DNA of 35,062 nucleotides from a virus (taxonomy: Duplodnaviria; Heunggongvirae; Uroviricota; Caudoviricetes), in IMG/VR virus record IMGVR_UViG_2548876964_000015, positions 1 to 35,062 of that record. One strand, written 5' to 3'. Below the pieces are notes generated by a model that was not told the DNA's origin, ran no database searches, and saw only the letters and a program-made list of their open reading frames with translations. The translations under genes and the position numbers were made by a program. Of the stretch, positions 1 through 33,812 are shown in pieces; position 1 is the stretch's first letter, and the number at the start of each line of letters is the position of its first letter.

Positions 1-5
1 CAAGT

Positions 6-80
6 GATGGTGTAGCTCAGCGGTAGAGCAGTTGGCTGTTAACCAACTGGTCGGTAGTTCGAATCCACCCACCATCGCCA
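6..80 (+). tRNA. tRNA-Asn (anticodon GTT)
   Basis: Cloverleaf read by eye: acceptor 6-12 GATGGTG pairs with 70-76 CACCATC; D-stem GCTC/GAGC; anticodon stem GTTGG/CCAAC with loop CTGTTAA (GTT at 38-40); T-loop TTCGAAT; CCA encoded at 78-80. One A-C mismatch in the T-stem. Confidence 0.75.
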
Positions 81-85
81 CTTTA

Positions 86-172
86 GGGGAGTTAGTCCGT
101 AGGGGTAGCGGGGTAGACTGTAAATCTACTGTCATTGCGACTCGGGTGGTTCGACTCCATCACTCCCCACCA
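86..172 (+). tRNA. Type-II (long variable arm) tRNA-like gene, anticodon GTA (Tyr-like); D-arm irregular
   Basis: Acceptor 86-92 GGGGAGT pairs with 162-168 ACTCCCC; perfect anticodon stem GTAGA/TCTAC with loop CTGTAAA (GTA at 120-122); 15-nt variable arm; T-loop TTCGACT; CCA at 170-172. The D-arm does not fold canonically, so it may be a pseudo-tRNA. Confidence 0.5.
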
Positions 173-176
173 CATT

Positions 177-252
177 GCCGATTTAGCTCAGTTGGTAGAG
201 CAGTCGCTTTGTAAGCGAATGGTCAGCGGTTCGATCCCGTTAATCGGCACCA
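177..252 (+). tRNA. tRNA-Thr (anticodon TGT)
   Basis: Acceptor 177-183 GCCGATT pairs with 242-248 AATCGGC; D-stem GCTC/GAGC; anticodon loop TTTGTAA (TGT at 210-212); T-loop GTTCGATCC region; CCA at 250-252. Confidence 0.8.
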
Positions 253-257
253 ACATA

Positions 258-330
258 ACAGGTAAGAGCATTCTCCCTTATGGGGCCTGGCTTAAATGCA
301 TCGAGTGCTCTTACCGTTGTGATGAAGTGC
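258..330. repeat. Hairpin unit copy 1 (10-bp stem GGTAAGAGCA / TGCTCTTACC, 261-270 with 306-315)
   Basis: Shares the 20-nt block ACAGGTAAGAGCATTCTCC and the tail CCGTTGTGATGAAGTGC with the copy at 899-990. Confidence 0.45.
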
Positions 331-599
331 AGATCTTAGAAGCAACCAGAAGATAAGCATCTGGCTTCACAACATAAACCGCAGGAACGACCAATAAACG
401 GTAGTCCGTATGGAGAACACCCCGTTGAGGAAGAGGCCTGGCCGGAACCGTAACCGGCGACTGGTAATGTGTGTAAATGGAGCGAAATATGTGGGCGTTT
501 AACGGGATACGGGTTGTAACAGCGATTATTAACGGCGAACTTAAGTATTCACGTTTCGAGACAAATGAACGTGATGGGAAATGTATTGGTGTGCGGTTA

Positions 600-725
600 G
601 TAAGAGAATACGCATAACAACTACAACGTTGAGAACACTGGCGTAACGGGGTCATATCCCAATCTACGAATAAATGTTGCGTTGCCGCGTGACAACCAGT
701 GTTCTCAACATTGTGGTGAATGCAC
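600..725. repeat. Hairpin unit copy 2 (14-bp perfect stem GTTGAGAACACTGG / CCAGTGTTCTCAAC, 628-641 with 686-699)
   Basis: Loop carries GTAACGGGGTCATATCCCAATCTAC, also present at 922-946; tail CATTGTGGTGAATGCAC resembles the tails of copies 1 and 3. Confidence 0.45.
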
Positions 726-898
726 AGGCTGATGTGCCGCAACTACAGTAGTGCGCGCTTTGCGGGGCTTGCTACAACCCTGTGTCGGAGTTCAGCACCG
801 ACCATCACAGTTTGATTCTCTGGCATGAGCATAACGCTGAAATAAGTCCAGTCTGGTGCGGTCTGATCACCCGCCGTTAGCTCCACGAAACGGAGCAC

Positions 899-990
899 GT
901 AACAGGTAAGAGCATTCTCCTGTAACGGGTTCATATCCCAATCTACAGGTCCACCAAGAATGCTCTTTCCGTTGCGGTGAATGCGGCTAA
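899..990. repeat. Hairpin unit copy 3 (11-bp stem AAGAGCATTCT / AGAATGCTCTT, 908-918 with 957-967)
   Basis: Same 5-prime block as copy 1 and same loop block as copy 2; tail CCGTTGCGGTGAATGCGG. Confidence 0.45.
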
Positions 991-1125
991 GCGCACGCGG
1001 GGAAATGGTTATATCTGTCCATTATTTCTCCTTGTTTCCACGTCCACGGTGGATAACCAGCCAAAGGACACCGGGAGGAACCCGGCACCGCAGCTTTTTT
1101 ATTCGTTAAATAATGGAGTGAGAGG

Positions 1126-1344
1126 ATGCAGAACAATCCGAACAAATGTCGAACGCTATGGGTGCGGTTATATATTTATGCCGTCCTCTGTTTGATTGTG
1201 TCACTGGTTCTGTATGTTTGGCTTTTGCCAAATATGATCTCATCTAACAGCACAATACTTGTATTGTTGGGAGTCCTTCTCGCGCTCATTTACCCGGCTT
1301 TCGCAGTAGTCTTTTTTCGTGAAAAAAACCAGGAAATTAATTAA
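1126..1344 (+). CDS. Small hydrophobic membrane protein (72 aa, two predicted helices)
   Basis: ATG preceded by GAGAGG; strongly hydrophobic sequence; stop overlaps the next start (TAATG), implying translational coupling. Confidence 0.55.
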   Translation: MQNNPNKCRTLWVRLYIYAVLCLIVSLVLYVWLLPNMISSNSTILVLLGVLLALIYPAFAVVFFREKNQEIN

Positions 1345-2171
1345 TGAAAAAAACGTTGATTAGTGCAGCGATTATTTTGGGTTCTTTATGTCTGACCGGA
1401 TGCGATCGGGTAGAGCCAGGTAACGTAGGGATCAAAGTAAATAAGCTGGGGGATGATAAAGGTATCGGTGAAGTAGTTGGCGTTGGTCGCTACTGGACAG
1501 GCTTGAATACTGAAGTTTATATCTTCCCGACCTTTAAGCAAATGAAGACATACGATGAGCCGTTCAGCTTCCAGATGAGCGACGGAACAACCATTGGTTA
1601 CCACATCGGCGTAGCCTACAAGGTTGATCCAGCAAAAGTCACAACGGTATTTCAGACCTATCGCAAAGGTGTAGATGATATTACTGATACCGATCTACGC
1701 CAGAAGGTTGCAGATGCTCTGAACCGATTAGCCAGCAAAATGACCACCGACAAATTTATCGACGGTGGCAAATCTGAATTGCTTGATGCAGCCCTTAAAG
1801 ACATTCAGGAAGAAATGACGCCAATCGGCATTCAGGTGATGAGCCTCTCTTATGTAGGTAAGCCAGAATACCCGCCAACAGTTATTGACAGTATTAACGC
1901 CAAAGTCACGGCAAACCAAAAAACCCTGCAACGCGAGCAAGAGGTCAAACAACGTGAAGCAGAGGCCAACATGCTGCGCGCGGAAGCTGCCGGACAGGCT
2001 GATGCTATTCGCACAAAAGCCCAGGCCGAAGCTGATGCCATTCGTTTACGTGGTGAAGCTCTGCGCCAGAACCCCGGTGTTATGGACTTGGAAGCGATCA
2101 ACAAATGGAACGGTACATTACCGCAGTATATGACCAGTAATACCGCTGTTCCGTTTGTTCCGGTGAAATAA
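1344..2171 (+). CDS. SPFH/band-7 (stomatin-prohibitin-like) lipoprotein
   Basis: N-terminal signal peptide with lipobox LTGC; band-7-like core; C-terminal Ala/Glu/Gln-rich coiled coil. Domain call by eye only. Confidence 0.7.
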   Translation: MKKTLISAAIILGSLCLTGCDRVEPGNVGIKVNKLGDDKGIGEVVGVGRYWTGLNTEVYIFPTFKQMKTYDEPFSFQMSDGTTIGYHIGVAYKVDPAKVTTVFQTYRKGVDDITDTDLRQKVADALNRLASKMTTDKFIDGGKSELLDAALKDIQEEMTPIGIQVMSLSYVGKPEYPPTVIDSINAKVTANQKTLQREQEVKQREAEANMLRAEAAGQADAIRTKAQAEADAIRLRGEALRQNPGVMDLEAINKWNGTLPQYMTSNTAVPFVPVK

Positions 2172-2198
2172 AAGCGTAAGCAAAATTGGCAGTAATCC

Positions 2199-2274
2199 GG
2201 CCCTTTAGCTCAGTGGTTAGAGCTGGCGACTTATAATCGCACGGTCACCGGTTCAAGTCCGGTAGGGGCCACCA
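2199..2274 (+). tRNA. tRNA-Ile-like (anticodon TAT)
   Basis: Acceptor 2199-2205 GGCCCTT pairs with 2264-2270 AGGGGCC (one G-T); D-stem GCTC/GAGC; anticodon loop CTTATAA (TAT at 2232-2234); perfect T-stem ACCGG/CCGGT; CCA at 2272-2274. Confidence 0.75.
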
Positions 2275-2548
2275 TATTTGGTTGTAACACGGCGTCTGGC
2301 ACATGCGTCGTTAGCGGTCTGGTGACGTTAAAGGGGTAACCTTTCCCCTAGCTCAGGCAACAAACCAGGTAGCCGGAATGTGCAAGCCCCGTTCATAGCG
2401 TCGGACTGCGGATTCACCATCCTGGCGATTCGGTGTGACAGCCGGGAAGAGTCCGGCGCATTAATCCTGATTTTCTGGTGATGACTCATATCGTTAGGAG
2501 TGATTTGAGTATGCCGATTATATCTGACATTCAGCACGCCTGGGTGGA

Positions 2549-3924
2549 GTGCTAATGTCTGCATCCCCTCTTGAATCCATGCCAAATTCCCTTAGTGCAG
2601 AACAAGCTGTACTTGGTGGCTTAATGCTTGATAACTGCCGCTGGGATGAAGTTGCAGATCGTATAGTTGCTGATGATTTTTATACCAGTGCTCATCGTGA
2701 AATTTTCAGTGAGATGGAGAGGTTATTAAGTCATGGCAAACCGATTGATTTGATAACACTTGCTGAAGCACTTGAACAGAACGGTAAATTAGAACAGAAC
2801 GCGCCGGTGGTTTTGCGTACCTTGCGGAGATGTCAAAGAACACGCCCAGCGCGGCAAATATTTGTGCTTATGCGGATATCGTTCGTGAACGCGCGGTTGT
2901 TCGTGAAATGATTTCCGTCGCAAATGAAATAGCTGAAGCTGGATATGCGCAGGATGGCAGGGGCAGCAATGAATTGCTGGATATGGCCGAGCGCCGCGTT
3001 TTTGAAATAGCTGAAAAACGACAAAAGAGCGGTAGTGGTCCAAAAGATATCGCCAGCATTCTCGATGCAACGGTATCTCGCATAGAAGAGTTGTTTCAGC
3101 GACCGCATGATGGTGTAACGGGGCTTGATACCGGATTTACCGATCTCAATAAGAAGACGGCAGGACTTCAGGCGTCCGATCTCATTATTGTCGCCGCCCG
3201 CCCATCGATGGGGAAGACTACGTTTGCGATGAATCTCGTCGAAAATGCCGCAGTCCGTAACGATAAGCCCGTATTGGTTTTTAGCCTTGAGATGCCGAGC
3301 CACCAACTGATGATGCGCTCACTGGCTTCTCTTGCACGCGTTGATCAGACTCGTATTCGAACAGGGCAACTTAACGACGAGGATTGGGCGCGGGTTTCTG
3401 GCGCAATGGGGATTCTGTTGGACAAGCAGAATATTTTTATTGATGACTCAAGCGCCCTGACACCTACAGAGCTTCGTTCCCGCGCTCGTCGTGTTTATAA
3501 AGAAAATGGTGGTTTGAGCATGATTATGATCGACTACCTGCAACTTATGCGCGTCCCCGAGCTGCAAGATAACCGAACGCTGGAAATTGCCGAGATTTCT
3601 CGCTCACTGAAGGCTTTGGCGAAGGAATTACAAGTACCGGTGGTGGCATTGTCACAACTTAATCGATCGCTTGAACAGCGTGCGGACAAACGACCGGTAA
3701 ATTCAGATTTACGTGAATCAGGAGCAATTGAGCAGGACGCAGACCTGATCATGTTTCTGTATCGCGACGAAGTTTATCACCCGGATAGCGAAATGAAGGG
3801 CATTGCCGAGGTAATTATCGGAAAGCAACGAAATGGCCCAATTGGCACGGTGAGATTGGCTTTTAACGGCCAATACTCACGGTTTGATAACTATGCTGGT
3901 GCTGACTGGCAAGAGGATTATTAA
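2549..3924 (+). pseudogene. ban: DnaB-family replicative helicase (P1 ban-like) split by a frameshift near 2798-2810
   Basis: ORF 2549..2911 encodes the DnaB N-terminal domain (AEQAVLGGLMLDN...IDLITLAEALEQNGKLEQ); ORF 2830..3924 in the next frame encodes the rest (Walker A ARPSMGKTT, C-terminal motifs). The conserved GGFAYLAEMSKNTPSAAN is only in frame after a shift around GAACGCGCCGGTGG. Confidence 0.8.
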
Positions 3925-4922
3925 TGCAATGGAATGAGGAAAAGCCGATGAACATCCTGATCATTGGGAGAAAATTTGAAGCTATCAGTGATGTGAAAAC
4001 ATATACGGAAATGTGGGCTTACAACCTGGCCTGCGCCTTTAGTGAGGCAGGGGTAACATTGCAATACCATCGTCCATATTCCCCTGGCGTCGAAAGCCCG
4101 GAGGATTATGTTGAAGCTGTGTTGACTGCTGCGACCGCATGTTCTGCGAAGGCCATTTTGGCACCAGGATTGAGGTATTTTACTACGGTACCCAGGGAAA
4201 TAGGCATGCAACTGTGTCGCCGATTCTCTGGATGGGTAGCCCAGGTATATGACGGTTCTATGCTGGATTCGGCACCAGTCGATATTACTTTTACTGTCCG
4301 CGATGATACCTGGCGGTACCTGGATAATCCCGGCAGGTTAGAGCGTCATAATCGCTTTAACAAACATGTTGGATGGGCAGCGAATCAGGAACTGTTCCAT
4401 CTGGAAACCAAGACAGACGATGTTCTGCGTATTTTTGTAGACCACGCTGCATTTGATGTTAGTGGGTTTGATCACTCCTTAAGTATCCTTATGAACCTTC
4501 AGCGTCTGACCGTTCCGTATGAGGCCAGAACGTTGACCGATGACGGATTGGTTACCATTGATCCGGGGAATATTTCGGTAACTCCATACAGGCGGACGCC
4601 GGTGCCAGCAACCGAATTTGCAGCTGAATTGCGTAAGAGTGACGTTTTTATCGTTACGCATCCCGAAAGCCTTGGATTAACTGTACTTGAGGCGGCAATG
4701 TGCGGGGCGTTGGTATTAACGCCTCCCGATTGCCTTCCGCCAGATCGCCTGGCTTTGGTGAACCATATGGTTATCAAGTCGCGGATTGATTGGGATGAGG
4801 TTATTGCTCGCGTTGATCGCGTGAAAAATGCTGAAAAGGTCCAGTGTCACACCTGGTCGGCAATTGCGGAAAAGATGCTTGAGACGTTTATCACGCAGAA
4901 ACCGTCGCGCGGTAATGATTGA
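3924..4922 (+). CDS. Hypothetical protein with glycosyltransferase-like (GT-B) C-terminal motif
   Basis: ATG overlaps the ban stop (TAATG); motif THPESLGLTVLEAAMCGALVL resembles the E-x7-E region of GT1/GT4 enzymes. Function is inferred. Confidence 0.5.
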   Translation: MQWNEEKPMNILIIGRKFEAISDVKTYTEMWAYNLACAFSEAGVTLQYHRPYSPGVESPEDYVEAVLTAATACSAKAILAPGLRYFTTVPREIGMQLCRRFSGWVAQVYDGSMLDSAPVDITFTVRDDTWRYLDNPGRLERHNRFNKHVGWAANQELFHLETKTDDVLRIFVDHAAFDVSGFDHSLSILMNLQRLTVPYEARTLTDDGLVTIDPGNISVTPYRRTPVPATEFAAELRKSDVFIVTHPESLGLTVLEAAMCGALVLTPPDCLPPDRLALVNHMVIKSRIDWDEVIARVDRVKNAEKVQCHTWSAIAEKMLETFITQKPSRGND

Positions 4923-4968
4923 TTCTATTCATATGATTGCGATTGTATTGATTTTTACGATACCGCTT

Positions 4969-5001
4969 ATTGCTCTAATAAATTTGATTTATTAGAGCAA
5001 A
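4969..5001. promoter_or_regulatory. Palindromic pair of C1-operator-like sites
   Basis: 4969-4985 ATTGCTCTAATAAATTT is a 17/17 match to the P1 C1 operator consensus as I recall it; an inverted 14/17 copy overlaps at 4985-5001, giving TTGCTCTAATAAAT-TTGA-TTTATTAGAGCAA. Confidence 0.7.
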
Positions 5002-5086
5002 TAAACTACCATCGAACGCCAGACTATTGATCTTCCTGTTGTTCAGGCTTATAGTTCCTACGTCGTAGTAAATTCTGCGACCGGGT

Positions 5087-5107
5087 TTGACAGCCTGAAT
5101 GTACATG
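5087..5107 (+). promoter_or_regulatory. Candidate antisense target pair a1/b1 (TTGACAG 5087-5093, GTACATG 5101-5107)
   Basis: Exact reverse complements of the two 7-mers inside the c4-like RNA (CTGTCAA 5225-5231, CATGTAC 5212-5218). Confidence 0.5.
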
Positions 5108-5113
5108 CGGACA

Positions 5114-5146
5114 ACCGCAGATATCCGATATTGCGGTATTTTTGTG
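5114..5146 (+). terminator. Hairpin followed by T-tract (terminator- or attenuator-like)
   Basis: ACCGCAGATAT-CCG-ATATTGCGGT stem with one bulge, then ATTTTTGTG. Confidence 0.35.
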
Positions 5147-5174
5147 TCCGTAAACCACGTTACGCCCGAATTAT

Positions 5175-5251
5175 GGTGGGGCGTGATGGGGAGGCTTCGG
5201 CCTGCTGGTTTCATGTACGCCAGTCTGTCAACCCCGTCACGTCCTGCCACC
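5175..5251 (+). ncRNA. c4: c4-like antisense repressor RNA candidate (77 nt)
   Basis: 5-prime GGTGGGGCGTGATGGGG can pair over about 17 bp (with G-U pairs) with 3-prime CCCCGTCACGTCCTGCC, leaving a 3-prime ACC tail; internal region exposes CATGTAC and CTGTCAA, complementary to repeats upstream (5087-5107) and downstream (5255-5290, the latter overlapping the icd ribosome-binding site). Confidence 0.55.
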
Positions 5252-5254
5252 TGT

Positions 5255-5290
5255 TTGACAGCGGGTAGCAGGTTGTTAAACCTGTACATG
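5255..5290 (+). promoter_or_regulatory. Candidate antisense target pair a2/b2 (TTGACAG 5255-5261, GTACATG 5284-5290)
   Basis: b2 lies immediately 5-prime of the GAGG Shine-Dalgarno of the 73-aa ORF starting at 5302. Confidence 0.5.
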
Positions 5291-5301
5291 AGGCCGTAAC
5301 T

Positions 5302-5523
5302 ATGGTTAATGCCAATCCTTGCGCACGCCCTGAATTTATCTGGCGCTTTTACTCCTGCCAGAAACGTCACTATCACTTCGTTATTGCACCGACAGAAGAT
5401 GAGGCTCGCTCTCAGCTTCCGGATGCACCCTGTATTTTCTCTGCCCGCTTTTCCACTTATTCACGCAATTCTCTCAGTTACTGGTGCCTCCCTGTTAACG
5501 CTTCTGCTCAGGAGGGACTATGA
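5302..5523 (+). CDS. icd: Small protein (73 aa) translationally coupled to the antirepressor; icd-like by position
   Basis: GAGG about 10 nt upstream of ATG; stop overlaps the ant ATG (ATGA). Position between c4-like RNA and ant matches the P1 immI layout as I recall it. Confidence 0.5.
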   Translation: MVNANPCARPEFIWRFYSCQKRHYHFVIAPTEDEARSQLPDAPCIFSARFSTYSRNSLSYWCLPVNASAQEGL

Positions 5524-6632
5524 GAACATCGTTAGTTACCCGTGAAGAGATGATCGAGGCAATTGAACAGCACACTGCCTGTATCAGTACCAGGGATATA
5601 CCTGGCGTTATTGCCAACTACTTCATGATCACCAAACAACTTTACCGGAGAAAGGACAAGAACGCGGTTCACCGTATCCTGTTGTCTGATATCCGCGAAT
5701 ACCTGCTCGAACAGGGTCATCTGAATTACGCAACCGTCGCAGCCGAAGCACGCAAGGAGGCACACAGAATGAAAGCAAATAACGTTAAATTAGAAAAAAT
5801 TCATGCACCTTCAGTTCAGGAATCGGAGCTGGTGGTTGTTCAGAATCAGTCTGATGAAATTCCCGTTCTGGAATGGCAGGGAGTACGTGTCGTGACAACC
5901 GAAACTCTTGCTAGAGGGTATGGGGTCGATGAAGCCAATATTCGCAACAATTTGTCTCGCAACCTTGACCGCTTTGAAGAAGGTAAGCATTACTTTCTTC
6001 TAACTGCTTTAAAATTAAGAGAATTTAAGAACAGAGTAACCGGAAGTTACTCTGTTGGTAAGAACGCCAGAAGCCTTACACTCTGGACAGAGCGCGGCGC
6101 TGCACGCATGTCTAAGATCGTGGACACAAATGAAGCATGGGCATTCTTTGAAAAACTGGAAGACAGCTACTTCCGGCAAAAAGAACAGCAACCGGTTGCA
6201 ATCCCCCAGACGCTTCCAGAAGCTCTGCGCCTGGCTGCCGAACTGGCTGAACAAAAGCAACTTCTGGAACAGAAAGCCCACCAGCTAAATCAGCAGCTGG
6301 TGGCCGCCGCTCCTAAGGTCGATTTTGCCGACCGGGTATCAGTAGCTAAAGGGATCCTGATTGGGAATTTTGCAAAGGTTGTTGGACTTAAGCAAAACGC
6401 GCTGTTTGCCTGGTTACGGGAGAACGGCATCCTGATAGCGTCCGGCGGACGTAAAAATGTGCCGTTTCAGCAGTACATAAACGCCGGATATTTCACGGTG
6501 AAAGAAGTGGTGCTGGATGATGAAGATGGCTACCAGATACGGTTGACGCCTCAATTAACGGGTAAAGGCCAGCAGTGGTTGACGCGTAAACTGCTCGATG
6601 CTGGCTTGTTAAAACCGGTGGCGGCTGAATAA
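5520..6632 (+). CDS. ant: Antirepressor (ORF6N/Bro-N-like middle domain plus KilA-C/Ant C-terminal domain)
   Basis: Strong SD GGAGGG; 370 aa; middle segment VLEWQGVRVVTTETLARGYGVD...FEEGKHYF and C-terminal DFADRVSVAKGILIGNFAKVVGLKQNALFAWLRENGIL are typical of phage antirepressors. Confidence 0.75.
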   Translation: MRTSLVTREEMIEAIEQHTACISTRDIPGVIANYFMITKQLYRRKDKNAVHRILLSDIREYLLEQGHLNYATVAAEARKEAHRMKANNVKLEKIHAPSVQESELVVVQNQSDEIPVLEWQGVRVVTTETLARGYGVDEANIRNNLSRNLDRFEEGKHYFLLTALKLREFKNRVTGSYSVGKNARSLTLWTERGAARMSKIVDTNEAWAFFEKLEDSYFRQKEQQPVAIPQTLPEALRLAAELAEQKQLLEQKAHQLNQQLVAAAPKVDFADRVSVAKGILIGNFAKVVGLKQNALFAWLRENGILIASGGRKNVPFQQYINAGYFTVKEVVLDDEDGYQIRLTPQLTGKGQQWLTRKLLDAGLLKPVAAE

Positions 6633-6639
6633 TGGAAGA

Positions 6640-6664
6640 ATGCCCGGTTGATGCCGGGCATAAT
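6640..6664. terminator. Bidirectional hairpin terminator between convergent ant and c1
   Basis: ATGCCCGG-TTGATG-CCGGGCAT followed by AATTTATT. Confidence 0.5.
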
Positions 6665-7516
6665 TTATTGCGCGCTTTCGGGGTTGTCGTTTACTGGCTG
6701 CCCCTTCTTGGTTTTACGGCTGCGCGCAACTGATGCGGCTGACTTAACCTTTTTCTCTTCGCGAGTGATGGCAATTTGTTTTTTTACATTTTCAATATCT
6801 GCCAGGCGATATATTTTTGCCTGCGGCCAGCGGTCGCAGATGATCGGTTCTATAGAGTCATAAAGGCTAAATTTTGCTTTCTCGAATTCACCGTTGATGA
6901 TGATTCCATCACGGAGAGTTTCATCGCAGATAAACACACCACACAGCGGCACATGGTAACTAACTGATTTACCATCATTGTAGTTAGGGCTACTGGAAAT
7001 GTAATGGACGCGCAGCATTGTTTCGCTAAAGCCGTGTACACGCATACGGAATTTTTCATCCTCCGGGTACTGCTTCATTAGCTCTTTTGTTGCTTCCAGG
7101 TTCTCTATGTATTTCGCACTGTGCTCATTGATCCCCGCGCTTTTCTGGATGCGAATGTCCTTATCAATCAGATGAATAATGCGGCCAGCGGTCATGTTGA
7201 CGCTGTTCACAGCTTCTGTCTGATAAGTTGTAACCTTACGCACACCGCGAAGGATGTTAGGCACTGGATATAAAATAGTCTTTGGGATATTGAGGTCTGG
7301 GTACTGTTCCAGTTCCCGCGCCATTAAAGTCCATTTATCAATTTCAGCCTGAATGCTGTCCGTTTCTTTGAACGGCAGAACGACAACCGGGCGTACAGGA
7401 CGACCGTCGCTGGCGGCATCAACGTGTTGGGCGCGTGCAACAGCTTTTTTTAGAAAGAGATCCCTGAAGCTGACGAACTCCTGGTACAGTTGTTCGCCGT
7501 AGACATAATTTATCAT
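6665..7516 (-). CDS. c1: C1 repressor of lysis (immC)
   Basis: 283-aa protein beginning MINYVYGEQLYQEFVSFRDLFLKK, matching my memory of P1 C1 over its length; strong SD GGAGGAGGA upstream. Confidence 0.9.
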   Translation of the reverse strand: MINYVYGEQLYQEFVSFRDLFLKKAVARAQHVDAASDGRPVRPVVVLPFKETDSIQAEIDKWTLMARELEQYPDLNIPKTILYPVPNILRGVRKVTTYQTEAVNSVNMTAGRIIHLIDKDIRIQKSAGINEHSAKYIENLEATKELMKQYPEDEKFRMRVHGFSETMLRVHYISSSPNYNDGKSVSYHVPLCGVFICDETLRDGIIINGEFEKAKFSLYDSIEPIICDRWPQAKIYRLADIENVKKQIAITREEKKVKSAASVARSRKTKKGQPVNDNPESAQ

Positions 7517-7539
7517 TGATCCTCCTCCAGAATTGACAT

Positions 7540-7580
7540 GGCCAACAACTCACAGCGGATTACACTGGGAGTTGTTGGCC
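7540..7580. promoter_or_regulatory. 12-bp perfect hairpin between coi and c1
   Basis: GGCCAACAACTC (7540-7551) pairs with GAGTTGTTGGCC (7569-7580), 17-nt loop. Confidence 0.4.
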
Positions 7581-7626
7581 ACCATTATAGAAGGATCCAA
7601 CGAAAATAATAGATTTATTAGTGCAT

Positions 7627-7836
7627 TTATTGTGAGTCTGGCTGGTTAGTGGCCATGAGATATTCGATTGTGTCAGTGAGATCATCCAGGTCGTCTTGGG
7701 TGATGCGGTACTCCTGATTGGATATCTTTGAGTAGTGTTCAGCAATGGCGCGGGCAGCGTCGGTTTCGGCAGGGTCTACAGATAAAGCGTTAGAGCAATG
7801 TCTAACGTCGTCGATGGTTGGTTGAATGAAAGCCAT
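7627..7836 (-). CDS. coi: Coi, C1 inactivator
   Basis: 69-aa acidic ORF immediately upstream of c1 on the same strand, as in P1 immC. Confidence 0.75.
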   Translation of the reverse strand: MAFIQPTIDDVRHCSNALSVDPAETDAARAIAEHYSKISNQEYRITQDDLDDLTDTIEYLMATNQPDSQ

Positions 7837-8074: not shown

Positions 8075-8091
8075 TAATTTATTAGAGCAAT
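8075..8091 (-). promoter_or_regulatory. C1-operator-like site (16/17)
   Basis: TAATTTATTAGAGCAAT is the reverse complement of the operator consensus with one mismatch; lies upstream of coi. Confidence 0.6.
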
Positions 8092-8156: not shown

Positions 8157-8173
8157 ATTGCTCTAATAATTCT
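8157..8173 (+). promoter_or_regulatory. C1-operator-like site (15/17)
   Basis: ATTGCTCTAATAATTCT. Confidence 0.5.
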
Positions 8174-10121: not shown

Positions 10122-10138
10122 ATTGCTCTAATTATTTG
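10122..10138 (+). promoter_or_regulatory. C1-operator-like site (14/17)
   Basis: ATTGCTCTAATTATTTG, 18 nt after the cre stop. Confidence 0.5.
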
Positions 10139-10596: not shown

Positions 10597-10626
10597 ATTG
10601 CTCTAATTGATTGCTATAATTGAGCC
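10597..10626 (+). promoter_or_regulatory. Tandem C1-operator-like sites upstream of ref
   Basis: ATTGCTCTAATTGATTG (14/17) then ATTGCTATAATTGAG (weaker, contains TATAAT). Confidence 0.5.
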
Positions 10627-12196: not shown

Positions 12197-13333
12197 ATGA
12201 AAGCAATGGGGAATGAAGTTTATCAAAGTCAAAAATGCAAGTTGAAATATTCAAAATCTCAAATTGATAGGGCTGCTCAATTGATAAGGCACGGGTGTAG
12301 TGACGAAGAAAGGCAGCAATCTATTGAAATGATACAAAATTTCCGTGAGCTGCATCTTTATCCATTAATGCTCATGAAAAATCATTTAGCAAGAGCAGCT
12401 GCTAAGGTTGACAAGGACAAAAAGATTCTCGTTGCAAGAAGACTTAAGCGACTTTCTACCATAATAGATAAACTAGAGCGTCCTAGTCTTGATGGAGGCA
12501 GAACTAGCAATGCAATTAAATTAACACGGATGCAGGACGTTGGCGGATGTAGGGCCATTGTCAGAAACTTAGACCAGTTGATACAGCTAAAGGAACGTCT
12601 TTTAAAAAGCAAATCTGTTCATAGGATTGTTAAAGAGTATGATTATCTTACTCCCAAAGACAGCGGCTATAGTGGAATCCACCTTGCATACAGTTGCTTC
12701 GATCAGAAAGAGGATCAATATCCGTGGCGAAAAACAAAGATTGAGATACAGTTAAGAACTCAATTGCAGCATGCTTGGGCTACTAGCCTTGAAATAATTG
12801 ATACCCTTGAAGGTATCAAGCTGAAAACTTCAAGTGAAGGGCATCCAGAATGGAGACGATTTTTCTATCTAGCCGGATGTCTTGTAGCGCACGACGAAAA
12901 AGCCTGCACTCTTGATGAGCTAGTTGTATCTCAGTATGAAGGCGAGCTTAAAGAGCTGGAACGGACTTTATCTGTACGGAGGAAACTAAGCACATACACC
13001 ATCGCCTTAAATTTAACTTCTGACGCGAATTTGATTAAGAAGTTGCCAAAAAATCATAAGGGGCATTACTTAGTAACAATGAGAAATGCAGAAAACAAGC
13101 CCAATACAAAAAACAAAAAAATGTTCCTAGTGTCTGTTCGCGCATTTAAAACAAAAGAAGCAGATGAAGCCCTTGAGGCCTTAAATAAAGACGATTCTAA
13201 TCCTAATGTATTGATATCTGTTCTCGTTGCTACAGATAACATTAAGTCACTAAAAAAAGCCTACCCCAACTATTTTGGCTCAACAAACCAGTTTACAAAA
13301 TTCTTAGATAAGCATCTTCGTAACGAAGGATAG
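12197..13333 (+). CDS. RelA/SpoT-like nucleotide pyrophosphokinase, toxSAS-type with extra C-terminal domain (fused toxin-antitoxin candidate, CapRel-like)
   Basis: Synthetase-domain motifs visible: RMQDVGGCRAIV, KEYDYLTPKDSGYSGIHL, KIEIQLRTQLQHAWA. About 170 aa of unrecognised C-terminal sequence follow. Confidence 0.8.
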   Translation: MKAMGNEVYQSQKCKLKYSKSQIDRAAQLIRHGCSDEERQQSIEMIQNFRELHLYPLMLMKNHLARAAAKVDKDKKILVARRLKRLSTIIDKLERPSLDGGRTSNAIKLTRMQDVGGCRAIVRNLDQLIQLKERLLKSKSVHRIVKEYDYLTPKDSGYSGIHLAYSCFDQKEDQYPWRKTKIEIQLRTQLQHAWATSLEIIDTLEGIKLKTSSEGHPEWRRFFYLAGCLVAHDEKACTLDELVVSQYEGELKELERTLSVRRKLSTYTIALNLTSDANLIKKLPKNHKGHYLVTMRNAENKPNTKNKKMFLVSVRAFKTKEADEALEALNKDDSNPNVLISVLVATDNIKSLKKAYPNYFGSTNQFTKFLDKHLRNEG

Positions 13334-20000: not shown

Positions 20001-20856
20001 CCAGGGGGATTTTCTCAGCCATCTCCGCCGGATGTTTGCGCATCAGCACCACGTCAACGACCGTACTGGTCCCGTTTGCGTCAAAAGTACCGGTAGGCAA
20101 GCGGTGGGCACCAAGAAATTCAGCTTTACGGGATAGGCGCAGGCGCAACCGCTTCATGTTTGAACCTGAAACAATGGACGGCGGCACAATCACACACATG
20201 AATCCGCCTGGCTTTATCTTGTCCAGCATGCGGAGCATGAAGTAAGACCCCATATCCGTTTCTTCTGCGTAAGGCTTATCGATGTTGCGTGTGTTATCAC
20301 GACCGCCGAACGGAACGTTACCCACAACATGGTCGAATGAATCGTTAGGTGTGCTTATAGCCAGCTGTTCGAACGGGGAAATCTGTACGCTGTCTTCCGG
20401 ATGTAACAGCTGGTTTATACGACCGGAAACACTGCTGATCTCAGTCGCGGTCATCACCGTACCAACCGGTTTTGTCTCATTAAAAACGCCGGTGCCCGCC
20501 GATGGTTCCAGAGTGTTACCTACGTCCGCGCCATAGAGCTTCATGATCTCCCAGACGCCTTCAGCGATCGGCTTTGGTGTGTAATATTCGGAGACGGACC
20601 CGCCAATGCCACCTTCACCGGTGTACCCAGCCAGGATCTGGCGCTGTTCATCTGTCAGTGTCGCGCCGTCCACCAGCGAATTAAGCAAATCTATCGCCTT
20701 CTGATTCGCCTCCCGGCGCAGTCGGTCATAGCTTTTGCCTTCCACCTTTTCCACGCCGTATTTAATCGGCGCCCGGTGAGATGTTATTGCCCTAATGTAT
20801 TTCAATATTTCGCTGACACTTGAACAGCGAAACACCCCCATAGATAGCTTGTTCAT
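14089..20856 (-). CDS. darB: DarB, large methyltransferase-helicase anti-restriction protein
   Basis: Single 2255-aa ORF; N-terminal N6-adenine methyltransferase motifs (EPSAGTG, NVPFGG); helicase motifs (GLGKTTT, DEGHNYRN). Length matches P1 DarB as I recall. Confidence 0.93.
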   Translation of the reverse strand: MNKLSMGVFRCSSVSEILKYIRAITSHRAPIKYGVEKVEGKSYDRLRREANQKAIDLLNSLVDGATLTDEQRQILAGYTGEGGIGGSVSEYYTPKPIAEGVWEIMKLYGADVGNTLEPSAGTGVFNETKPVGTVMTATEISSVSGRINQLLHPEDSVQISPFEQLAISTPNDSFDHVVGNVPFGGRDNTRNIDKPYAEETDMGSYFMLRMLDKIKPGGFMCVIVPPSIVSGSNMKRLRLRLSRKAEFLGAHRLPTGTFDANGTSTVVDVVLMRKHPAEMAEKIPLVDEGTLESANVLWPTFISGKWFEKDGRRFVHGTQEKGFQGRIEVRADGQIDNQALKAKLIHRFESRIDWSLLDMAEPSPTADVVGEGEMRLINGVWQKYAGGRWIEADAGKELKIDAASYGADSWEALQRNLTTTEGRLGMTFTQMANVRDKYTTSISDDMVQLVDWINSQPEKYRERLYRGAMIGRMLIEYQDMKAAGHSAEQIEQQRLSLVSRLQAEIDRFGNPGRGPIAKLSGSGARAWFAFRGAIKLDGTISDELTGKLVTHDSSASYDSTSYQDTLRYLYSDLTRDPIQLDDFRLAFTGELPASDDELLNLLASTPGIAVSQYGGIVPFARATSGDINEIVAPKQEFLATLPDGPVKNNVLNQLAAIEEKRIKTPAENIRFKLNSRWFDRSVILEFLQENGYPDLRYVQSVQLEGDEMVSDTYHGSDGLFVGHRYGVVQRKDKETGEIRYEWDRKSGENATGFPAQLEKYLNGARIGGKDSATANGYREQMALLEDQFNKWIKTHDRYDELVAKYNDVFNSNIPYEHSGDPLGLKGLSGKRQPFDYQNSEVRRLSEDGRGILGFGTGLGKTTTALALEAFNYENGRSTRTAYVVPKSVLENWYYEAKEFLSEEAFSNYLFVGLDVLMDGDQIRQVPVLDENGKPVLGTDGTPVMRDALKLADEATITARMNAIPHSNYRAVVFTKEQYARIPLRDDTVDEHAQDMLYDFVAAGRVASAMDSDSHRKEAARRWVLSEYSDTGTEKAEKYPYFEDMGFDSVIADEGHNYRNSYKNGREASQLAYLPTSAVAQSARDMAIKNAYLMKKNGGRGPVLLTATPVVNTPIDAYNMLSHVLPKEYWQKMGIYGPDDFVKFFGKTRLETVQKISGEVEEKMALVGFENLDALRGIFHRWVTLKTAEDVKDTVEIPELDEHQQDAPLTEEQLAAYEELRQQAEAAAKANNGVTTSVNEDGVIEHEKARPIFSIIRDMDRVCTDMDLYYRRITYRFLPEYADAVQQLADSLPKQATSEDDDSDDSITQQSQYSLIDKGEFIQLQVPEAFEQEVNKRLARFGIDEQTVTHPVTPKYAKLIATLKEFFPEGKQIIFTDEKTQHQKLKRIICNALNLEPSKVGILNAQTVAEAGKTGKKLKAVKPPKELPDEPTDAQIAKYNEQMALYDAYIAQQNEMSLGGLEKIAADFQEGRTPIIICNKKAEVGINLHRGTTDIHHLTLPWTPASIAQRNGRGARVGSNRASVRVHYYCGKGSFDEYRLKTLKRKAGWISDILRSDKSEMENADANDMIEMQMYTAKDDGERLAMMQVQMDKAKAAQRARQKEQATIDLQNYIKAQHAAGEDVEVLTAELERSKAELEKTTAEVAKFKQAVMAKAADNADWKARWGSVHHTDRTLLAQYRASLKSAIQRKANISQAISRYEKLLNRTQKAATDIKRLRPLVEDAINKGILDVDPDLVNHASEFLVIGDRSWRVGQYYDCAGDIVRIKSLDFDSQRADVEIIFTFKGTKSGNWDVKTLDKQVDVTPDEDAVMQKISGGVSIAGINDIISCDDFYRFQQRGMIKITDSYGVQTTESGYSIDFVGTYTDPLKHAVYPDRRDGALKSSIAKWVLGMMSEGNNRQIRSAETFLVELFGSNYGDVIASYGDTLSPEAIQEKIADAIARMPEKTSQGATRNGDSELEVTNAIFGTNEFRASDYEITTAQFGTIGIYSNKAEIKQAMDAASARIAAERKANLNHAVAALTQSWVTAIREAATTGKITPAIADVVNDGSKFMDAYKMDAVQLPSAYGQLSYRMTYNLVSMFTDLAILGLVDLNEVTPELLSMRKNHVEILQRINTVLAGRTDEEKQADADRINLALGNITEEEIAARNEKQEELSSIQGDATSIAQSLGLNYRVSTADLKMMYAPKFAAGEVFGLQEASGMKGVLFRAKDAIKAKFGARWLPAKAKNSDFPGNWWIIETKHNVADVLAVIQQYA

Positions 20857-25971: not shown

Positions 25972-25988
25972 GTTGCTCTAATTATTTT
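25972..25988 (+). promoter_or_regulatory. C1-operator-like site (14/17) between lyz and ssb
   Basis: GTTGCTCTAATTATTTT. Confidence 0.5.
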
Positions 25989-26496: not shown

Positions 26497-26693
26497 ATGT
26501 GTAAAAAACGACTGAAAAAAAAGCGGTGGTCCAGACGCCGACAAAAGCACGAACTCGCTCAAAAACGCCAAAGTTGGCAATGGCACGCGCTTTTAACGAA
26601 TAGAACACCCCGAGATATTGCTTTCGCTGGTGGGAAAACATTCCTAACCAACCTGAAGGCGCAATACATCAGTTTTTAAGCAGAGAAAAGACT

Positions 26694-27482: not shown

Positions 27483-27484
27483 AA

Positions 27485-27517
27485 AGAACCCGCCAATTGG
27501 CGGGTTCTTTATTTATT
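27485..27517 (+). terminator. Rho-independent terminator
   Basis: AGAACCCGCC-AATT-GGCGGGTTCT then TTATTTATT. Confidence 0.6.
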
Positions 27518-27728
27518 GAATTAGCATTCAACTCCCGATTGTTATAGCGAACACTATGTAACAGAATAATATTATTAACATTTTAGTAATAAGTTGATTA
27601 TTCATCTTCTGTATTCGCAAAGCGTAAGTATTGCTCATAGTTTCTTATTCCAGTACATTGTGATTCGTTGAGGCAAAAGAATAGTGGCAATTCTACTGGC
27701 AATAAACTCAAGTAAGAGGTTGTAAACA

Positions 27729-28016
27729 ATGGAAAAACTGAACAATTTCTTAGACAAAATATCCACCCCAAACACTCGCGCAGGCCACACTATTACCCGC
27801 ATAGCTAAGCTAAGCGATGCGGGTGTCAGTGATGACGTAATCGCACTTCAACTGTCCAGTAACAGTGCAAATGGCTTCCGATATACAGCAGATGAAATAA
27901 AAGCGTATAAGAAGCTCCACAATGATGTAAAAACTAAAGTGGGAATTACATCCAAACAAACAAAAGCATTAATCAAAGATCAAGAGCTGACTTTTGTTGC
28001 ATTGCCTCAAAACTAA
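27729..28016 (+). CDS. Hypothetical protein (95 aa) in an AT-rich island
   Basis: Flanked by AT-rich non-coding DNA; followed by a 13-bp hairpin GTTATAAGAGCGA...TCGCTCTTATAAC at about 28052-28097. Confidence 0.45.
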   Translation: MEKLNNFLDKISTPNTRAGHTITRIAKLSDAGVSDDVIALQLSSNSANGFRYTADEIKAYKKLHNDVKTKVGITSKQTKALIKDQELTFVALPQN

Positions 28017-31517: not shown

Positions 31518-31529
31518 CCCTGTTACGCC

Positions 31530-33811: not shown

Positions 33812-33812
33812 G

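What the first reader, a model, noticed from the sequence alone, without database searches (positions are those of the whole stretch)
4969..6664. immI-type antisense immunity module (operator, 77-nt c4-like RNA, icd, ant) sits directly beside c1
Downstream of a perfect palindromic C1 operator there are two direct copies of the pair TTGACAG...GTACATG (5087-5107 and 5255-5290). Between them a 77-nt segment (5175-5251) can close into a roughly 17-bp stem and exposes CATGTAC and CTGTCAA, the exact complements of those pairs. The second target copy overlaps the ribosome-binding site of a 73-aa ORF that is translationally coupled to a 370-aa antirepressor. This is the architecture of the P1 c4/icd/ant system as I recall it, but here it abuts c1 convergently and is not followed by kilA or repL, which is a different arrangement from P1.
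Basis: partly seen in the sequence, partly recalled or inferred. Interest (0 to 1): 0.6.

Follow-up and report, generated by a model that had tools for sequence, protein, structure and literature searches.

The report
P1-type c4/icd/ant immunity module, fused copy
This is an ordinary, intact antisense-RNA-controlled antirepressor module (c4-icd-ant) of a P1-like phage-plasmid, and it sits next to the c1 repressor gene only because two copies of the module recombined and about 25.6 kb of phage genes between them was lost.

Summary
Rfam places a C4 antisense RNA at 5169-5254 (70.7 bits, cut-off 45) and its a1/b1 leader at 5049-5101. The 77-nt core folds as predicted (-44.9 kcal/mol, z -4.8). The 7-mer pairs lie at the stated coordinates, and icd (82% identical to P1 Icd) overlaps ant by ATGA.

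The arrangement beside c1 is not a new design. P1-like plasmids commonly carry extra c4-icd-ant modules. One lies between pacB and c1 (RCS47, JL22, hundreds of plasmids; noted in PMC6906374). Another lies after ban-dbn.

The closest complete relative, E. coli O111:H8 plasmid p08_4347-1, has three modules. The window is colinear with it at 99.9% or better, except that its dbn-side and c1-side modules are fused. The crossover falls in a 258-nt identical stretch (5459-5716), and 25,559 bp is missing, including tail genes, phd/doc, lpa, pacAB and the c1-side c4.

No closed plasmid, phage or E. coli genome searched shows this fusion. Two other draft assemblies do, with different crossover alleles. 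I judge it a real, recurrent deletion (about 0.65); an assembly chimera is not excluded.

The C4 b' loop (CAUGUAC) differs from those of P1, P7 and D6 and covaries with both of its targets. This is a known kind of system and of low interest.

The parts
4969..5001 (.). Bivalent, palindromic C1 operator. It consists of a perfect 17-mer at 4969-4985 (+) and an overlapping inverted 17-mer at 4985-5001 (-). This is also the left edge of the mobile module.
   Evidence: 0 and 3 mismatches to ATTGCTCTAATAAATTT; 14-nt perfect inverted arms. Homology to the mat-side module of pEC21Z048-103K starts exactly at 4969.
4984..5012 (+). Candidate C1-controlled promoter (TTGATT, 17-nt spacer, TACCAT), positional equivalent of P1 P2c4/P51a. 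Its -35 lies inside the operator.
   Evidence: Alignment A1 against the annotated P1 promoter. Inference only; it scored too weakly to appear in the consensus scan.
5027..5055 (+). Operon promoter TTGATC, 17-nt spacer, TATAGT. It is the equivalent of P1 P1c4/P51b.
   Evidence: 9 of 12 consensus positions. It aligns with the annotated P1 TTGACC...TATAGT.
5049..5107 (+). Leader carrying the first target pair: a1 TTGACAG at 5087-5093 and b1 GTACATG at 5101-5107.
   Evidence: Rfam RF03163 c4-a1b1, 52 bits, at 5049-5101. Pattern search.
5175..5251 (+). C4 antisense RNA, 77-nt mature form by homology to P1. b' CAUGUAC lies at 5212-5218 and a' CUGUCAA at 5225-5231.
   Evidence: Rfam RF01695, 70.7 bits. 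Fold z -4.81. 11 of 22 pairs show compensatory changes across 8 modules. The sequence equals the P1/P7 scaffold except in the loops.
5255..5293 (+). Second target pair: a2 TTGACAG at 5255-5261 and b2 GTACATGA at 5284-5291. b2 overlaps the icd Shine-Dalgarno GAGG at 5290-5293.
5302..5523 (+). icd, 73 aa. Its stop codon overlaps the ant start (ATGA).
   Evidence: 82% identity to P1 Icd, E 7e-47. The protein is identical to the dbn-side Icd of many plasmids.
5459..5716 (.). Crossover interval. To its left the window carries the dbn-side alleles; to its right it carries the c1-side alleles of a p08_4347-1-like parent.
   Evidence: Three-way alignment and informative sites. Allele table.
5520..6632 (+). 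ant1, 370 aa. It combines a conserved Ant1-specific N-terminus, an ORF6N domain (aa 116-200) and an ANT/KilAC domain (aa 258-359).
   Evidence: Pfam. 57% identity to P1 Ant1, with the C-terminal 140 aa about 93% identical. The exact protein is found next to c1 in other assemblies.
5769..6632 (+). ant2 equivalent, 287 aa. It uses an in-frame internal ATG at +249 nt, preceded by AAGGAGG at 5754-5760.
   Evidence: The offset is the same as the annotated P1 ant2 (48937 versus 48688).
6640..6661 (.). GC-rich hairpin between the converging ant and c1 genes; a likely shared terminator.
   Evidence: 9-bp stem, 6 GC pairs.
6665..7516 (-). c1 repressor, 283 aa.
   Evidence: 99% identical to RCS47 C1. 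Pfam family Phage_P7_repressor_C1 is recorded for the same gene.

Best explanation
The region 4969-6664 is a complete, probably functional P1 immI-type secondary-immunity operon.

**How it works (by homology to P1/P7).**
- A promoter at 5027-5055, plus a weaker operator-overlapped promoter under C1 control, transcribes leader(a1,b1)-c4-(a2,b2)-icd-ant as one RNA.
- The 77-nt C4 RNA is cut out of this transcript.
- Its b' loop (CAUGUAC) and single-stranded a' (CUGUCAA) pair with b2 and a2 on other copies of the transcript.
- This occludes the icd ribosome-binding site. Because ant translation is coupled to icd, the Ant1/Ant2 antirepressor is not made, and C1 stays active.
- If Ant is made, it binds and inactivates C1.

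**Specificity.** It is set by the loop-target pairs. This module has the P1/D6 a' but a b' unlike those of P1, P7 or D6.

**How it came to lie beside c1.** Plasmids of this lineage carry paralogous modules after ban-dbn and before c1, in direct orientation. The modules share a conserved block (icd plus the Ant1 N-terminus). A homologous crossover inside that block (5459-5716) fused the dbn-side operator, c4, targets and icd to the c1-side Ant body. It deleted 25,559 bp: tail and baseplate genes, hot, humD, phd/doc, lpa, pacAB and the c1-side c4.

**Consequences.** The crossover lies downstream of a2/b2, so the surviving C4 still matches its cis targets and control of ant is preserved. The element itself can no longer package or build tails.

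**Shown:** sequence features, homology, covariation and the crossover map. **Inferred:** RNA processing, translational repression, Ant-C1 binding, and that the deletion happened in the cell.
For: **Module identity.**
- Rfam C4 at 70.7 bits and c4-a1b1 at 52 bits.
- Fold z -4.81; 11 compensatory pairs.
- Icd 82% and Ant 57% identical to P1; ANT domain.
- ATGA coupling and the Ant2 internal start at the same +249 offset as P1.
- Operator and promoter align with annotated P1 Oc4/P1c4.

**Antisense specificity.**
- In the 9 module types compared (8 scored in the matrix), a' and b' are fully complementary only to their own a2/b2.
- That is 7+8 pairs on the diagonal. Cognate b duplexes are -8.4 to -9.9 kcal/mol; non-cognate ones are -5.6 or weaker.

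**Fusion origin.**
- Window 187-5778 is 99.875% identical to the dbn side of p08_4347-1, and window 5329-27600 is 99.969% identical to its c1 side.
- The window is colinear with that plasmid over its whole length otherwise.
- Informative sites switch between 5458 and 5717.
- That plasmid has three C4 genes and the listed genes in the deleted interval.

**Evidence that the deletion is real.**
- The same architecture occurs in two other assemblies, GCA_020280785.1 and GCA_031681195.1, with different crossover alleles. One of them implies a switch within 69 nt or less of identity.
- All 24 contigs that were read carrying this exact Dbn, from draft (WGS) assemblies, traverse the unfused dbn-side module in contigs of 56-106 kb. 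So assemblers normally resolve this repeat.
- The window's last 420 nt show an insertion-rich indel pattern typical of an unpolished long-read contig end. Long reads would span a 450-nt repeat.
- ban carries a private 5-nt frameshifting duplication, which fits an element already decaying.
Against: - No closed plasmid (72,556 records), phage (50,697 records) or complete E. coli genome (5,426) has dbn-immI-c1 in one place. That is 0 places covering at least 80% of the query. The fused form is therefore seen only in draft or unverified assemblies.
- A 258-nt perfect repeat is exactly where an assembler could mis-join.
- The deletion removes the phd/doc addiction module, which should penalise cells that acquire it.
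- No reads are available to verify the junction.
- All functional steps (processing, repression, Ant-C1 binding) are inferred from P1/P7, not tested for this allele.
- The Ant middle domain (ORF6N) differs from P1 Ant1, so C1 binding is less certain.
Confidence: 0.62

Rival explanations
1. The module is what it seems, but its position beside c1 is an assembly chimera. On this reading the source plasmid still has both the dbn-side and c1-side modules and the 25.6 kb between them. The assembler walked from one copy into the other through the shared identical stretch.
For: - The switch lies in a 258-nt stretch that is identical in both parental copies.
- The fused arrangement is absent from every closed record searched. 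It is present only in the window and two draft contigs.
- The window ends in error-rich sequence inside an IS, so the source assembly is not finished.
Against: - All 24 contigs read with this exact Dbn pass correctly through the same repeat.
- The two other fused contigs have different crossover alleles. One requires a switch inside 69 nt or less of identity, which reads of 150-250 nt would resolve.
- If the window comes from long reads, a 450-nt repeat would be spanned.
- The window also carries a private frameshift in ban, which fits a truly defective element.
Confidence: 0.27
2. The arrangement is native rather than a deletion. On this reading a mobile operator-to-terminator immI cassette inserted between dbn and c1 in a P1-like genome whose gene order differs from P1, with the gene 5 to pacB block located elsewhere.
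For: - The module behaves as a cassette. Homologous copies with the same left edge (4969, the operator) sit at three or four different backbone sites: after dbn, after mat, before c1, and before kilA.
- An E. albertii plasmid has a dbn-side module with a 370-aa Ant.
Against: - Both flanks and both halves of the module are 99.9% or more identical to one plasmid in which the two halves belong to separate modules 25.6 kb apart.
- The allele switch inside the module is the signature of a crossover, not of an insertion.
- Among the 777 complete E. coli genomes that hold a match to this region (of 5,426 searched), none places dbn next to c1.
Confidence: 0.04
3. The module is an inert remnant. On this reading c4, icd and ant are no longer expressed or no longer act on C1, and the sequence is merely carried along.
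For: - The element appears defective (deletion and ban frameshift).
- The canonical-site ant of the relative p08_4347-1 is a pseudogene, so immI modules in this lineage can decay.
Against: - All parts are intact: both promoter hexamers, the operator, full-length C4 with perfect target complementarity, and open icd and ant with good ribosome-binding sites.
- The Icd and Ant proteins are identical to copies found in many independent assemblies.
Confidence: 0.07

Closest known systems
Bacteriophage P1 immI operon (Oc4-P1c4/P2c4-c4-icd-ant1/ant2; NC_005856 48140-49731)
   Same: - Same order of parts and same spacing.
- The C4 scaffold is identical outside the b' loop apart from one stem base.
- Same a' and a targets (CUGUCAA/TTGACAG).
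- b2 lies over the icd Shine-Dalgarno sequence, icd and ant overlap as ATGA, and Ant2 starts at +249.
- Icd is 82% identical. The Ant N- and C-terminal parts are conserved.
   Different: - b' and its b1/b2 targets differ: CAUGUAC/GTACATG here against CACUAAC/GTTAGTG in P1.
- The operator is bivalent and palindromic rather than monovalent.
- The Ant middle region is replaced by an ORF6N domain.
- The flanks are dbn and c1 instead of sim and kilA-repL.
Phage P7 and phage D6 immI modules
   Same: Same scaffold and architecture. They show that specificity resides in a'/b' and their targets.
   Different: P7 has a' CUGCUAA and b' CACAAUC. D6 has a' CUGUCAA and b' CGUAAGU, with a Roi-like antirepressor. 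The window's b' is a further allele.
c1-adjacent accessory module of RCS47, JL22, pTZ20_1P and many E. coli/Salmonella P1-like plasmids (pacB-c4-icd-ant-c1)
   Same: The 370-aa ORF6N+ANT antirepressor converges on c1, and the sequence from 5329 onward is 92.7-99.97% identical in the records compared. The ant insertion between pacB and c1 is described in PMC6906374.
   Different: Those modules have pacB upstream, an isrK-like leader (RF01394), and a different C4 scaffold and specificity. The window has none of these; its left half comes from the dbn-side module.
dbn-side accessory module of STEC P1-like plasmids (pF1273-3, p08_4347-1: ban-dbn-c4-icd-ant-gene 5)
   Same: The operator, promoter, leader, c4, targets, icd and first 86 codons of ant are 99.6-100% identical.
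   Different: There the Ant body is a 344-aa type without ORF6N, and it is followed by the tail and baseplate genes, not by c1.
Salmonella Gifsy-1 IsrK / P22 sar-ant (RNA control of prophage antirepressors)
   Same: A small RNA encoded in the same transcription unit limits expression of a downstream antirepressor-type gene. The isrK model hits the leaders of the paralogous c1-side modules.
   Different: No isrK-like leader is present in the window's module. The comparison is one of principle only and rests on my knowledge of those systems and on the title and abstract of PMC4825925.

Membership tests
P1/P7 immI operon (c4-icd-ant) | C4 antisense RNA recognised by the curated covariance model RF01695 at or above the gathering score | tested here: met
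   70.7 bits against 45; full-length match to model positions 1-87 at 5169-5254.
P1/P7 immI operon (c4-icd-ant) | A 77-nt RNA with a long closing stem and two hairpins, supported by stability and covariation | tested here: met
   -44.9 kcal/mol, z -4.81. 11 of 22 consensus pairs show double-sided changes across 8 modules.
P1/P7 immI operon (c4-icd-ant) | Loop sequences a'/b' complementary to a downstream a2/b2 pair, with b2 over the icd ribosome-binding site, and to an upstream a1/b1 pair | tested here: met
   Exact 7-nt (a) and 7-8-nt (b) complements at 5087-5107 and 5255-5291. The pattern occurs 3 times against 0 expected. RF03163 scores 52 bits. Cognate-only complementarity across 8 modules.
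P1/P7 immI operon (c4-icd-ant) | icd homologue immediately downstream, translationally coupled to ant | tested here: met
   82% identity to P1 Icd. ATGA overlap at 5520-5523.
P1/P7 immI operon (c4-icd-ant) | Antirepressor with nested Ant1/Ant2 starts and an ANT (KilAC) domain | tested here: met
   PF03374, 109.5 bits. 57% identity to P1 Ant1. In-frame ATG at +249 with AAGGAGG upstream. The middle domain differs (ORF6N).
P1/P7 immI operon (c4-icd-ant) | C1 operator at the operon promoter | tested here: met
   Perfect 17-mer at 4969-4985 plus an inverted copy. C1 binding itself was not tested.
P1/P7 immI operon (c4-icd-ant) | C4 excised from the operon transcript (RNase P at the 5' end) and acting in trans to block icd/ant expression | not testable with these tools
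   Only the conserved scaffold and the 3' GCCACC tail are seen. Needs Northern blotting or primer extension, plus reporter assays.
P1/P7 immI operon (c4-icd-ant) | Ant protein binds and inactivates C1 | not testable with these tools
   Homology only. The C-terminal 140 aa are about 93% identical to P1 Ant1.
P1/P7 immI operon (c4-icd-ant) | Canonical locus context: sim upstream, kilA-repL downstream | tested here: not met
   The flanks are dbn and c1. This is a feature of the P1 locus, not of the mechanism. In the relative p08_4347-1 the canonical locus lies elsewhere on the plasmid.
c1-adjacent accessory module (RCS47 type) | pacB upstream, isrK-like leader and its own C4 specificity | tested here: not met
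   The window has dbn upstream, a c4-a1b1 leader and the dbn-side C4. Homology to RCS47-type modules starts only at 5329.
c1-adjacent accessory module (RCS47 type) | 370-aa ORF6N+ANT antirepressor converging on c1 | tested here: met
   The exact protein is found next to c1 in p08_4347-1 and others. 99.97% DNA identity from 5329 onward.
dbn-side accessory module (pF1273-3 type) | ban-dbn upstream, with operator, c4, targets and icd of this allele | tested here: met
   99.6-99.9% identity over 1-5778.
dbn-side accessory module (pF1273-3 type) | 344-aa Ant followed by tail and baseplate genes (gene 5 onward) | tested here: not met
   From 5779 the window follows the c1-side sequence. All 24 contigs read with the same Dbn have the 344-aa Ant and the tail genes.

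The most novel reading that the evidence does not exclude
The conserved icd-plus-Ant1-N-terminus block may act as a built-in recombination linker in P1-like phage-plasmids. It would shuffle C4 specificity cassettes and Ant effector bodies while always keeping each C4 matched to its cis targets.

Where several orthogonal modules sit in direct orientation on one plasmid, the same linker would recurrently delete the roughly 25-kb late-gene, packaging and addiction block. That would turn an inducible phage-plasmid into a non-packageable plasmid that keeps C1 and C4 immunity.

The window, and two independent assemblies with different crossover points, would be natural examples of this route from phage-plasmid to plasmid.
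Probability: 0.4. Interest if true: 0.45.

Novelty: new member of a known kind. Interest (0 to 1): 0.22.

Why it matters
Mostly it does not. The module is a textbook P1 immI operon, and accessory copies, including one beside c1, are already in the literature and in hundreds of records.

Three points have modest value:
- The lineage carries up to three modules whose loop-target pairs match only their own partner. The window's b' allele (CAUGUAC) is distinct from those of P1, P7 and D6. This bears on superinfection immunity typing of P1-like plasmids, which are common in STEC and in multidrug-resistant E. coli.
- The fused copy shows how paralogous immunity modules can mediate large deletions that disable a phage-plasmid while keeping its immunity. 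This is relevant to how phage-plasmids degrade into plasmids.
- C4 genes in public records are unannotated or overlaid by spurious 'ash family protein' CDSs.

Tried and rejected
- **Searching for the same junction in closed records.** I searched plasmids, phages and complete E. coli genomes with window 3900-7600. There were 0 places covering at least 80% of the query. The arrangement therefore could not be confirmed in any finished sequence.
- **Identifying the source contig.** I tried exact-protein look-ups with Icd, Ant and Dbn. These found two other fused contigs, but neither is identical to the window (99.3-99.4%). The source and its reads remain unknown.
- **A possible closed deletion derivative.** I checked whether the 72.5-kb plasmid NZ_CP027223.1 is one. 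It is not: its dbn-side module is followed by tail genes.
- **An unusual genome order.** I considered that the window might reflect a P1 relative with a truly different gene order. I rejected this because of 99.9% or better colinearity with p08_4347-1 and the allele switch inside the module.
- **Primary mechanism papers.** I tried to read Lobocka 2004, Citron & Schuster 1992 and Heinrich 1994. They are not held. Mechanistic statements rest on the P1 GenBank annotation, on secondary descriptions in PMC8198154 and PMC8546580, and on my own knowledge.
- **Solved structures.** A PDB sequence search for Ant gave only chance-level hits.
Full report

Yes, at the stated coordinates. The sequence shows TTGACAG at 5087-5093 and 5255-5261, and GTACATG at 5101-5107 and 5284-5290. 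It shows the complements CATGTAC at 5212-5218 and CTGTCAA at 5225-5231.

The composite pattern TTGACAG-N(5-25)-GTACATG occurs three times in 35 kb: the two target pairs, and the c4 segment read on the other strand. None is expected in 100 shuffles.

The operator is a perfect match to the P1 C1 consensus ATTGCTCTAATAAATTT at 4969-4985, with an overlapping inverted copy at 4985-5001. The window holds 9 consensus-like sites against 0.2 expected. It forms a perfect 14-nt inverted repeat with a 3-nt centre.

The 77-nt segment 5175-5251 folds into a 17-bp closing stem and two hairpins at -44.9 kcal/mol (z -4.81; 0 of 200 shuffles fold as well).

**2. What is it?**

Rfam's curated models call a C4 antisense RNA at 5169-5254 (70.7 bits, gathering score 45). 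They call the 'a1, b1 targets of C4' leader at 5049-5101 (52 bits, gathering score 46.7).

Compared with the annotated P1 locus and an alignment of the regulatory regions, the layout is the same part for part:
- **Promoters.** An operator-overlapped weak promoter (TTGATT-17-TACCAT, 4984-5012) stands at the position of P2c4. A better promoter (TTGATC-17-TATAGT, 5027-5055) stands at the position of P1c4.
- **RNA and targets.** The order is a1/b1, then c4, then a2/b2, with b2 overlapping the icd Shine-Dalgarno sequence.
- **icd.** 73 aa, 82% identical to P1 Icd.
- **ant.** It starts in an ATGA overlap with the icd stop. An internal in-frame start at +249 nt lies behind AAGGAGG, exactly as for P1 ant2.

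The 370-aa Ant is 57% identical to P1 Ant1. Its N-terminus is conserved and its C-terminal ANT/KilAC domain is about 93% identical to P1's. The middle is replaced by an ORF6N domain. A hairpin at 6640-6661 separates ant from the converging c1, and that c1 is 99% identical to RCS47 C1.

**3. Specificity**

Outside the loops, the 77-nt RNA is identical to the P1/P7 scaffold. The loop and target sequences are as follows:

| Module | a' | b' | Targets |
|---|---|---|---|
| Window | CUGUCAA | CAUGUAC | TTGACAG, GTACATG |
| P1 | CUGUCAA | CACUAAC | |
| P7 | CUGCUAA | CACAAUC | |
| D6 | CUGUCAA | CGUAAGU | |
| E. albertii dbn-side | CUGCUAA | CAUUCGU | |
| p08_4347-1 canonical | GUUCCAA | CCUUUUGC | |
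| p08_4347-1 c1-side | AGGCCAA | CCUUGGAC | |
| RCS47 c1-side | GUCUCAA | CCUUUGAC | |
| JL22 c1-side | GUCUCAA | CCUUUUGC | |

In every module both target copies change together with the loops. In an 8 x 8 matrix only the cognate combinations give 7+8 pairs. Cognate b duplexes are -8.4 to -9.9 kcal/mol; non-cognate ones are -5.6 or weaker.

This RNA-target covariation is strong comparative evidence that the antisense mechanism operates in all these modules. The stem covariation adds to it: 11 of 22 pairs have double-sided changes. The window's module is thus a further specificity allele. Because it shares a' with P1 and D6, partial cross-talk cannot be excluded.

**4. Why is it next to c1?**

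The window is a P1-like (Punavirus) phage-plasmid segment with this gene order:
- four tRNAs, ban, dbn;
- the module;
- c1, coi, cre, ref, mat, darB, prt, pro and onward.

Extra c4-icd-ant modules are common in this group:
- RCS47, JL22 and hundreds of plasmids have one between pacB and c1. Each has its own C4 and an isrK-like leader. Venturini et al. 2019 (PMC6906374) already noted an ant inserted between pacB and c1 'as in RCS47', and icd-ant homologues at the res-mod site.
- A second c4/icd region was noted in a D6-like plasmid (PMC6799933).
- STEC plasmids such as pF1273-3 carry another module directly after ban-dbn, followed by the tail genes.
- pEC21Z048-103K has one after mat whose homology to the window begins exactly at the operator, position 4969.

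The best complete relative is p08_4347-1 (E. coli O111:H8, 101,763 bp). It has three modules: dbn-side, c1-side, and the canonical one before kilA/repL.

The window matches that plasmid as follows:

| Window | p08_4347-1 record | Identity |
|---|---|---|
| 1-186 | 101578-101763 | 100% |
| 187-5778 | 1-5587 | 99.875% |
| 5329-27600 | 30697-52968 | 99.969% |
| 26632-35062 | 52000-60423 | 99.89% |

The two matches overlap at 5329-5778, the block shared by both modules. This block comprises most of icd, the Ant1-specific N-terminus and the ant2 start. In a three-way alignment the window carries all dbn-side alleles up to 5458 and all c1-side alleles from 5717. The join therefore lies in a 258-nt stretch that is identical in both copies.

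The join removes 25,559 bp: genes 5, 6, 24, 7, 25 and 26, the pmg block, hot, humD, phd/doc, pdcAB, lpa, pacAB and the c1-side c4.

The crossover is downstream of a2/b2. The surviving dbn-side C4 therefore still matches its cis targets, and it now controls the c1-side type of Ant body.

**5. Real deletion or assembly artefact?**

Evidence against a real deletion:
- No closed record shows the fusion. There are 0 places covering at least 80% of window 3900-7600 in 72,556 plasmids, and none in 5,426 complete E. coli genomes, 777 of which hold a match.
- No phage record covers the module at 80% or more either.
- The join lies in a perfect repeat.
- Loss of phd/doc should be counter-selected.

Evidence for a real deletion:
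- The same architecture is present in two further assemblies, GCA_020280785.1 (a 50-kb contig) and GCA_031681195.1 (a 72.4-kb contig). Neither is identical to the window.
- Their alleles imply different crossovers or different parents. One switches within 5459-5527. The other carries the dbn-side allele at 5717. So the event is recurrent.
- All 24 contigs read with this exact Dbn, from draft (WGS) assemblies, pass correctly through the unfused dbn-side module in contigs up to 106 kb. Assemblers therefore normally resolve this repeat.
- The last 420 nt of the window, inside IS1203, contain 8 single-base insertions and 1 deletion relative to two reference copies, while the remaining 34.6 kb is essentially clean. 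This is the profile of an unpolished long-read contig end, and long reads would span a 450-nt repeat.
- ban carries a private 5-nt tandem duplication that frameshifts it, absent from eight relatives. That fits an element that has already lost lytic competence.

I put the in-vivo deletion at about 0.6-0.65 and the chimera at about 0.27.

**6. How it most likely works**

The following is by homology to P1/P7. It rests on the annotation, the descriptions in PMC8198154 and PMC8546580, and my knowledge of Citron & Schuster 1990/1992 and Biere et al. 1992.

- The operon is transcribed as one RNA.
- C4 is excised, with RNase P cutting at the 5' end.
- Its b' and a' pair with b2/a2 and block icd translation.
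- Ant synthesis, which is coupled to icd, is thereby prevented. Transcription probably also terminates early.
- C1 additionally represses the operator-overlapped promoter.
- When Ant1/Ant2 are made, they bind C1 and lift repression.

Shown here are the parts, their conservation and the covariation. Inferred are processing, repression, Ant-C1 binding and heteroimmunity.

**7. Comparison and novelty**

The module passes every sequence-level membership test for the P1/P7 immI family. The exception is the canonical flanking context, which is a property of the P1 locus rather than of the mechanism. It is half a dbn-side module and half a c1-side module.

The kind of system is fully known. The accessory locations are published. 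The c4 allele is present, unannotated, in many public plasmids.

The only new elements are the specific b' allele, which to my knowledge has not been described, and the fused, deletion-bearing arrangement.

The shared icd/Ant1-N block occurs in 375 of 5,426 complete E. coli genomes, at one to five places per genome. The substrate for such events is therefore widespread.

Interest is low, at about 0.2. The most novel reading is that this block serves as a recombination linker, one that shuffles specificity and effector parts and recurrently converts phage-plasmids into defective plasmids. That reading is plausible but unproven.

Noticed in passing
window 2786-2800 (ban, ORFs 2555-2911 and 2830-3924): The DnaB-like helicase gene ban carries a 5-nt tandem duplication (AGAAC repeated, extra copy at 2791-2795). 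It is absent from p08_4347-1, pF1273-3 and six draft contigs. It frameshifts the gene into two ORFs of 118 and 364 aa. It is either a real inactivating mutation or a sequence error.
   Followed up: partly
window 34640-35062: The window ends inside an IS3-family element (IS1203; ALIL frameshift pseudoknot at 34930-35049, only 85.9 bits against 121.5 bits in a reference copy). This last 420 nt has 8 single-base insertions and 1 deletion relative to two IS1203 copies. The rest of the window has none, apart from the 5-nt duplication in ban. It looks like an unpolished long-read contig end.
   Followed up: partly
window 12197-13333 (+): A 378-aa RelA/SpoT-domain protein sits at the variable site that holds res/mod in P1. 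It is a close homologue of PDB 7ZTB/9ERV (E 5e-185) and of PADLOC candidate PDC-S33. To my knowledge 7ZTB is CapRel of the P1-like prophage SJ46, a fused toxin-antitoxin anti-phage defence.
   Followed up: partly
window 23693-24901 (-): A 402-aa TnpB/InsQ-type RNA-guided nuclease gives strong Cas12f/Cas12u-like hits. It is inserted between the head-protease gene and the lysozyme gene, as in p08_4347-1.
   Followed up: no
window 6-252 and 2199-2274: There are four tRNA genes (Asn-GTT, Tyr-GTA, Thr-TGT, Ile-TAT) upstream of ban. As I recall, P1 itself has three, so the tRNA-Tyr would be extra.
   Followed up: no
L005 5836-5955; L010 19719-19949; L029 15085-15204: In related plasmids, short 'ash family protein' CDSs are annotated directly on top of the C4 RNA genes of the c1-side and canonical modules (Rfam C4 hits at L005 5832-5919, L010 19832-19919 and L029 15081-15168). 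They are probably mis-annotations of the RNA gene.
   Followed up: partly
L001/L002/L005/L006 about 5708-5807; L010 19730-19807; L029 14958-15036: The c1-side and canonical modules of these plasmids have leaders that match the Salmonella Gifsy-1 isrK model (RF01394, 58-61 bits) rather than c4-a1b1. These leaders still carry a1/b1 boxes complementary to their own C4. This suggests isrK-type leaders and c4-a1b1 leaders do the same job in these modules.
   Followed up: partly
window 7611-7627, 8075-8091, 8157-8173, 10122-10138, 10597-10613, 20786-20802, 25972-25988: There are further C1-operator-like 17-mers with 1-3 mismatches, scattered as in P1: near c1/coi, cre/ref, darB and ssb.
   Followed up: no
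L029 15441-16829 (p08_4347-1 record 79440-80828): In the closest complete relative, the ant of the canonical module (the one followed by kilA and repL) is annotated as two partial pseudogene pieces. The two accessory modules are intact.
   Followed up: no
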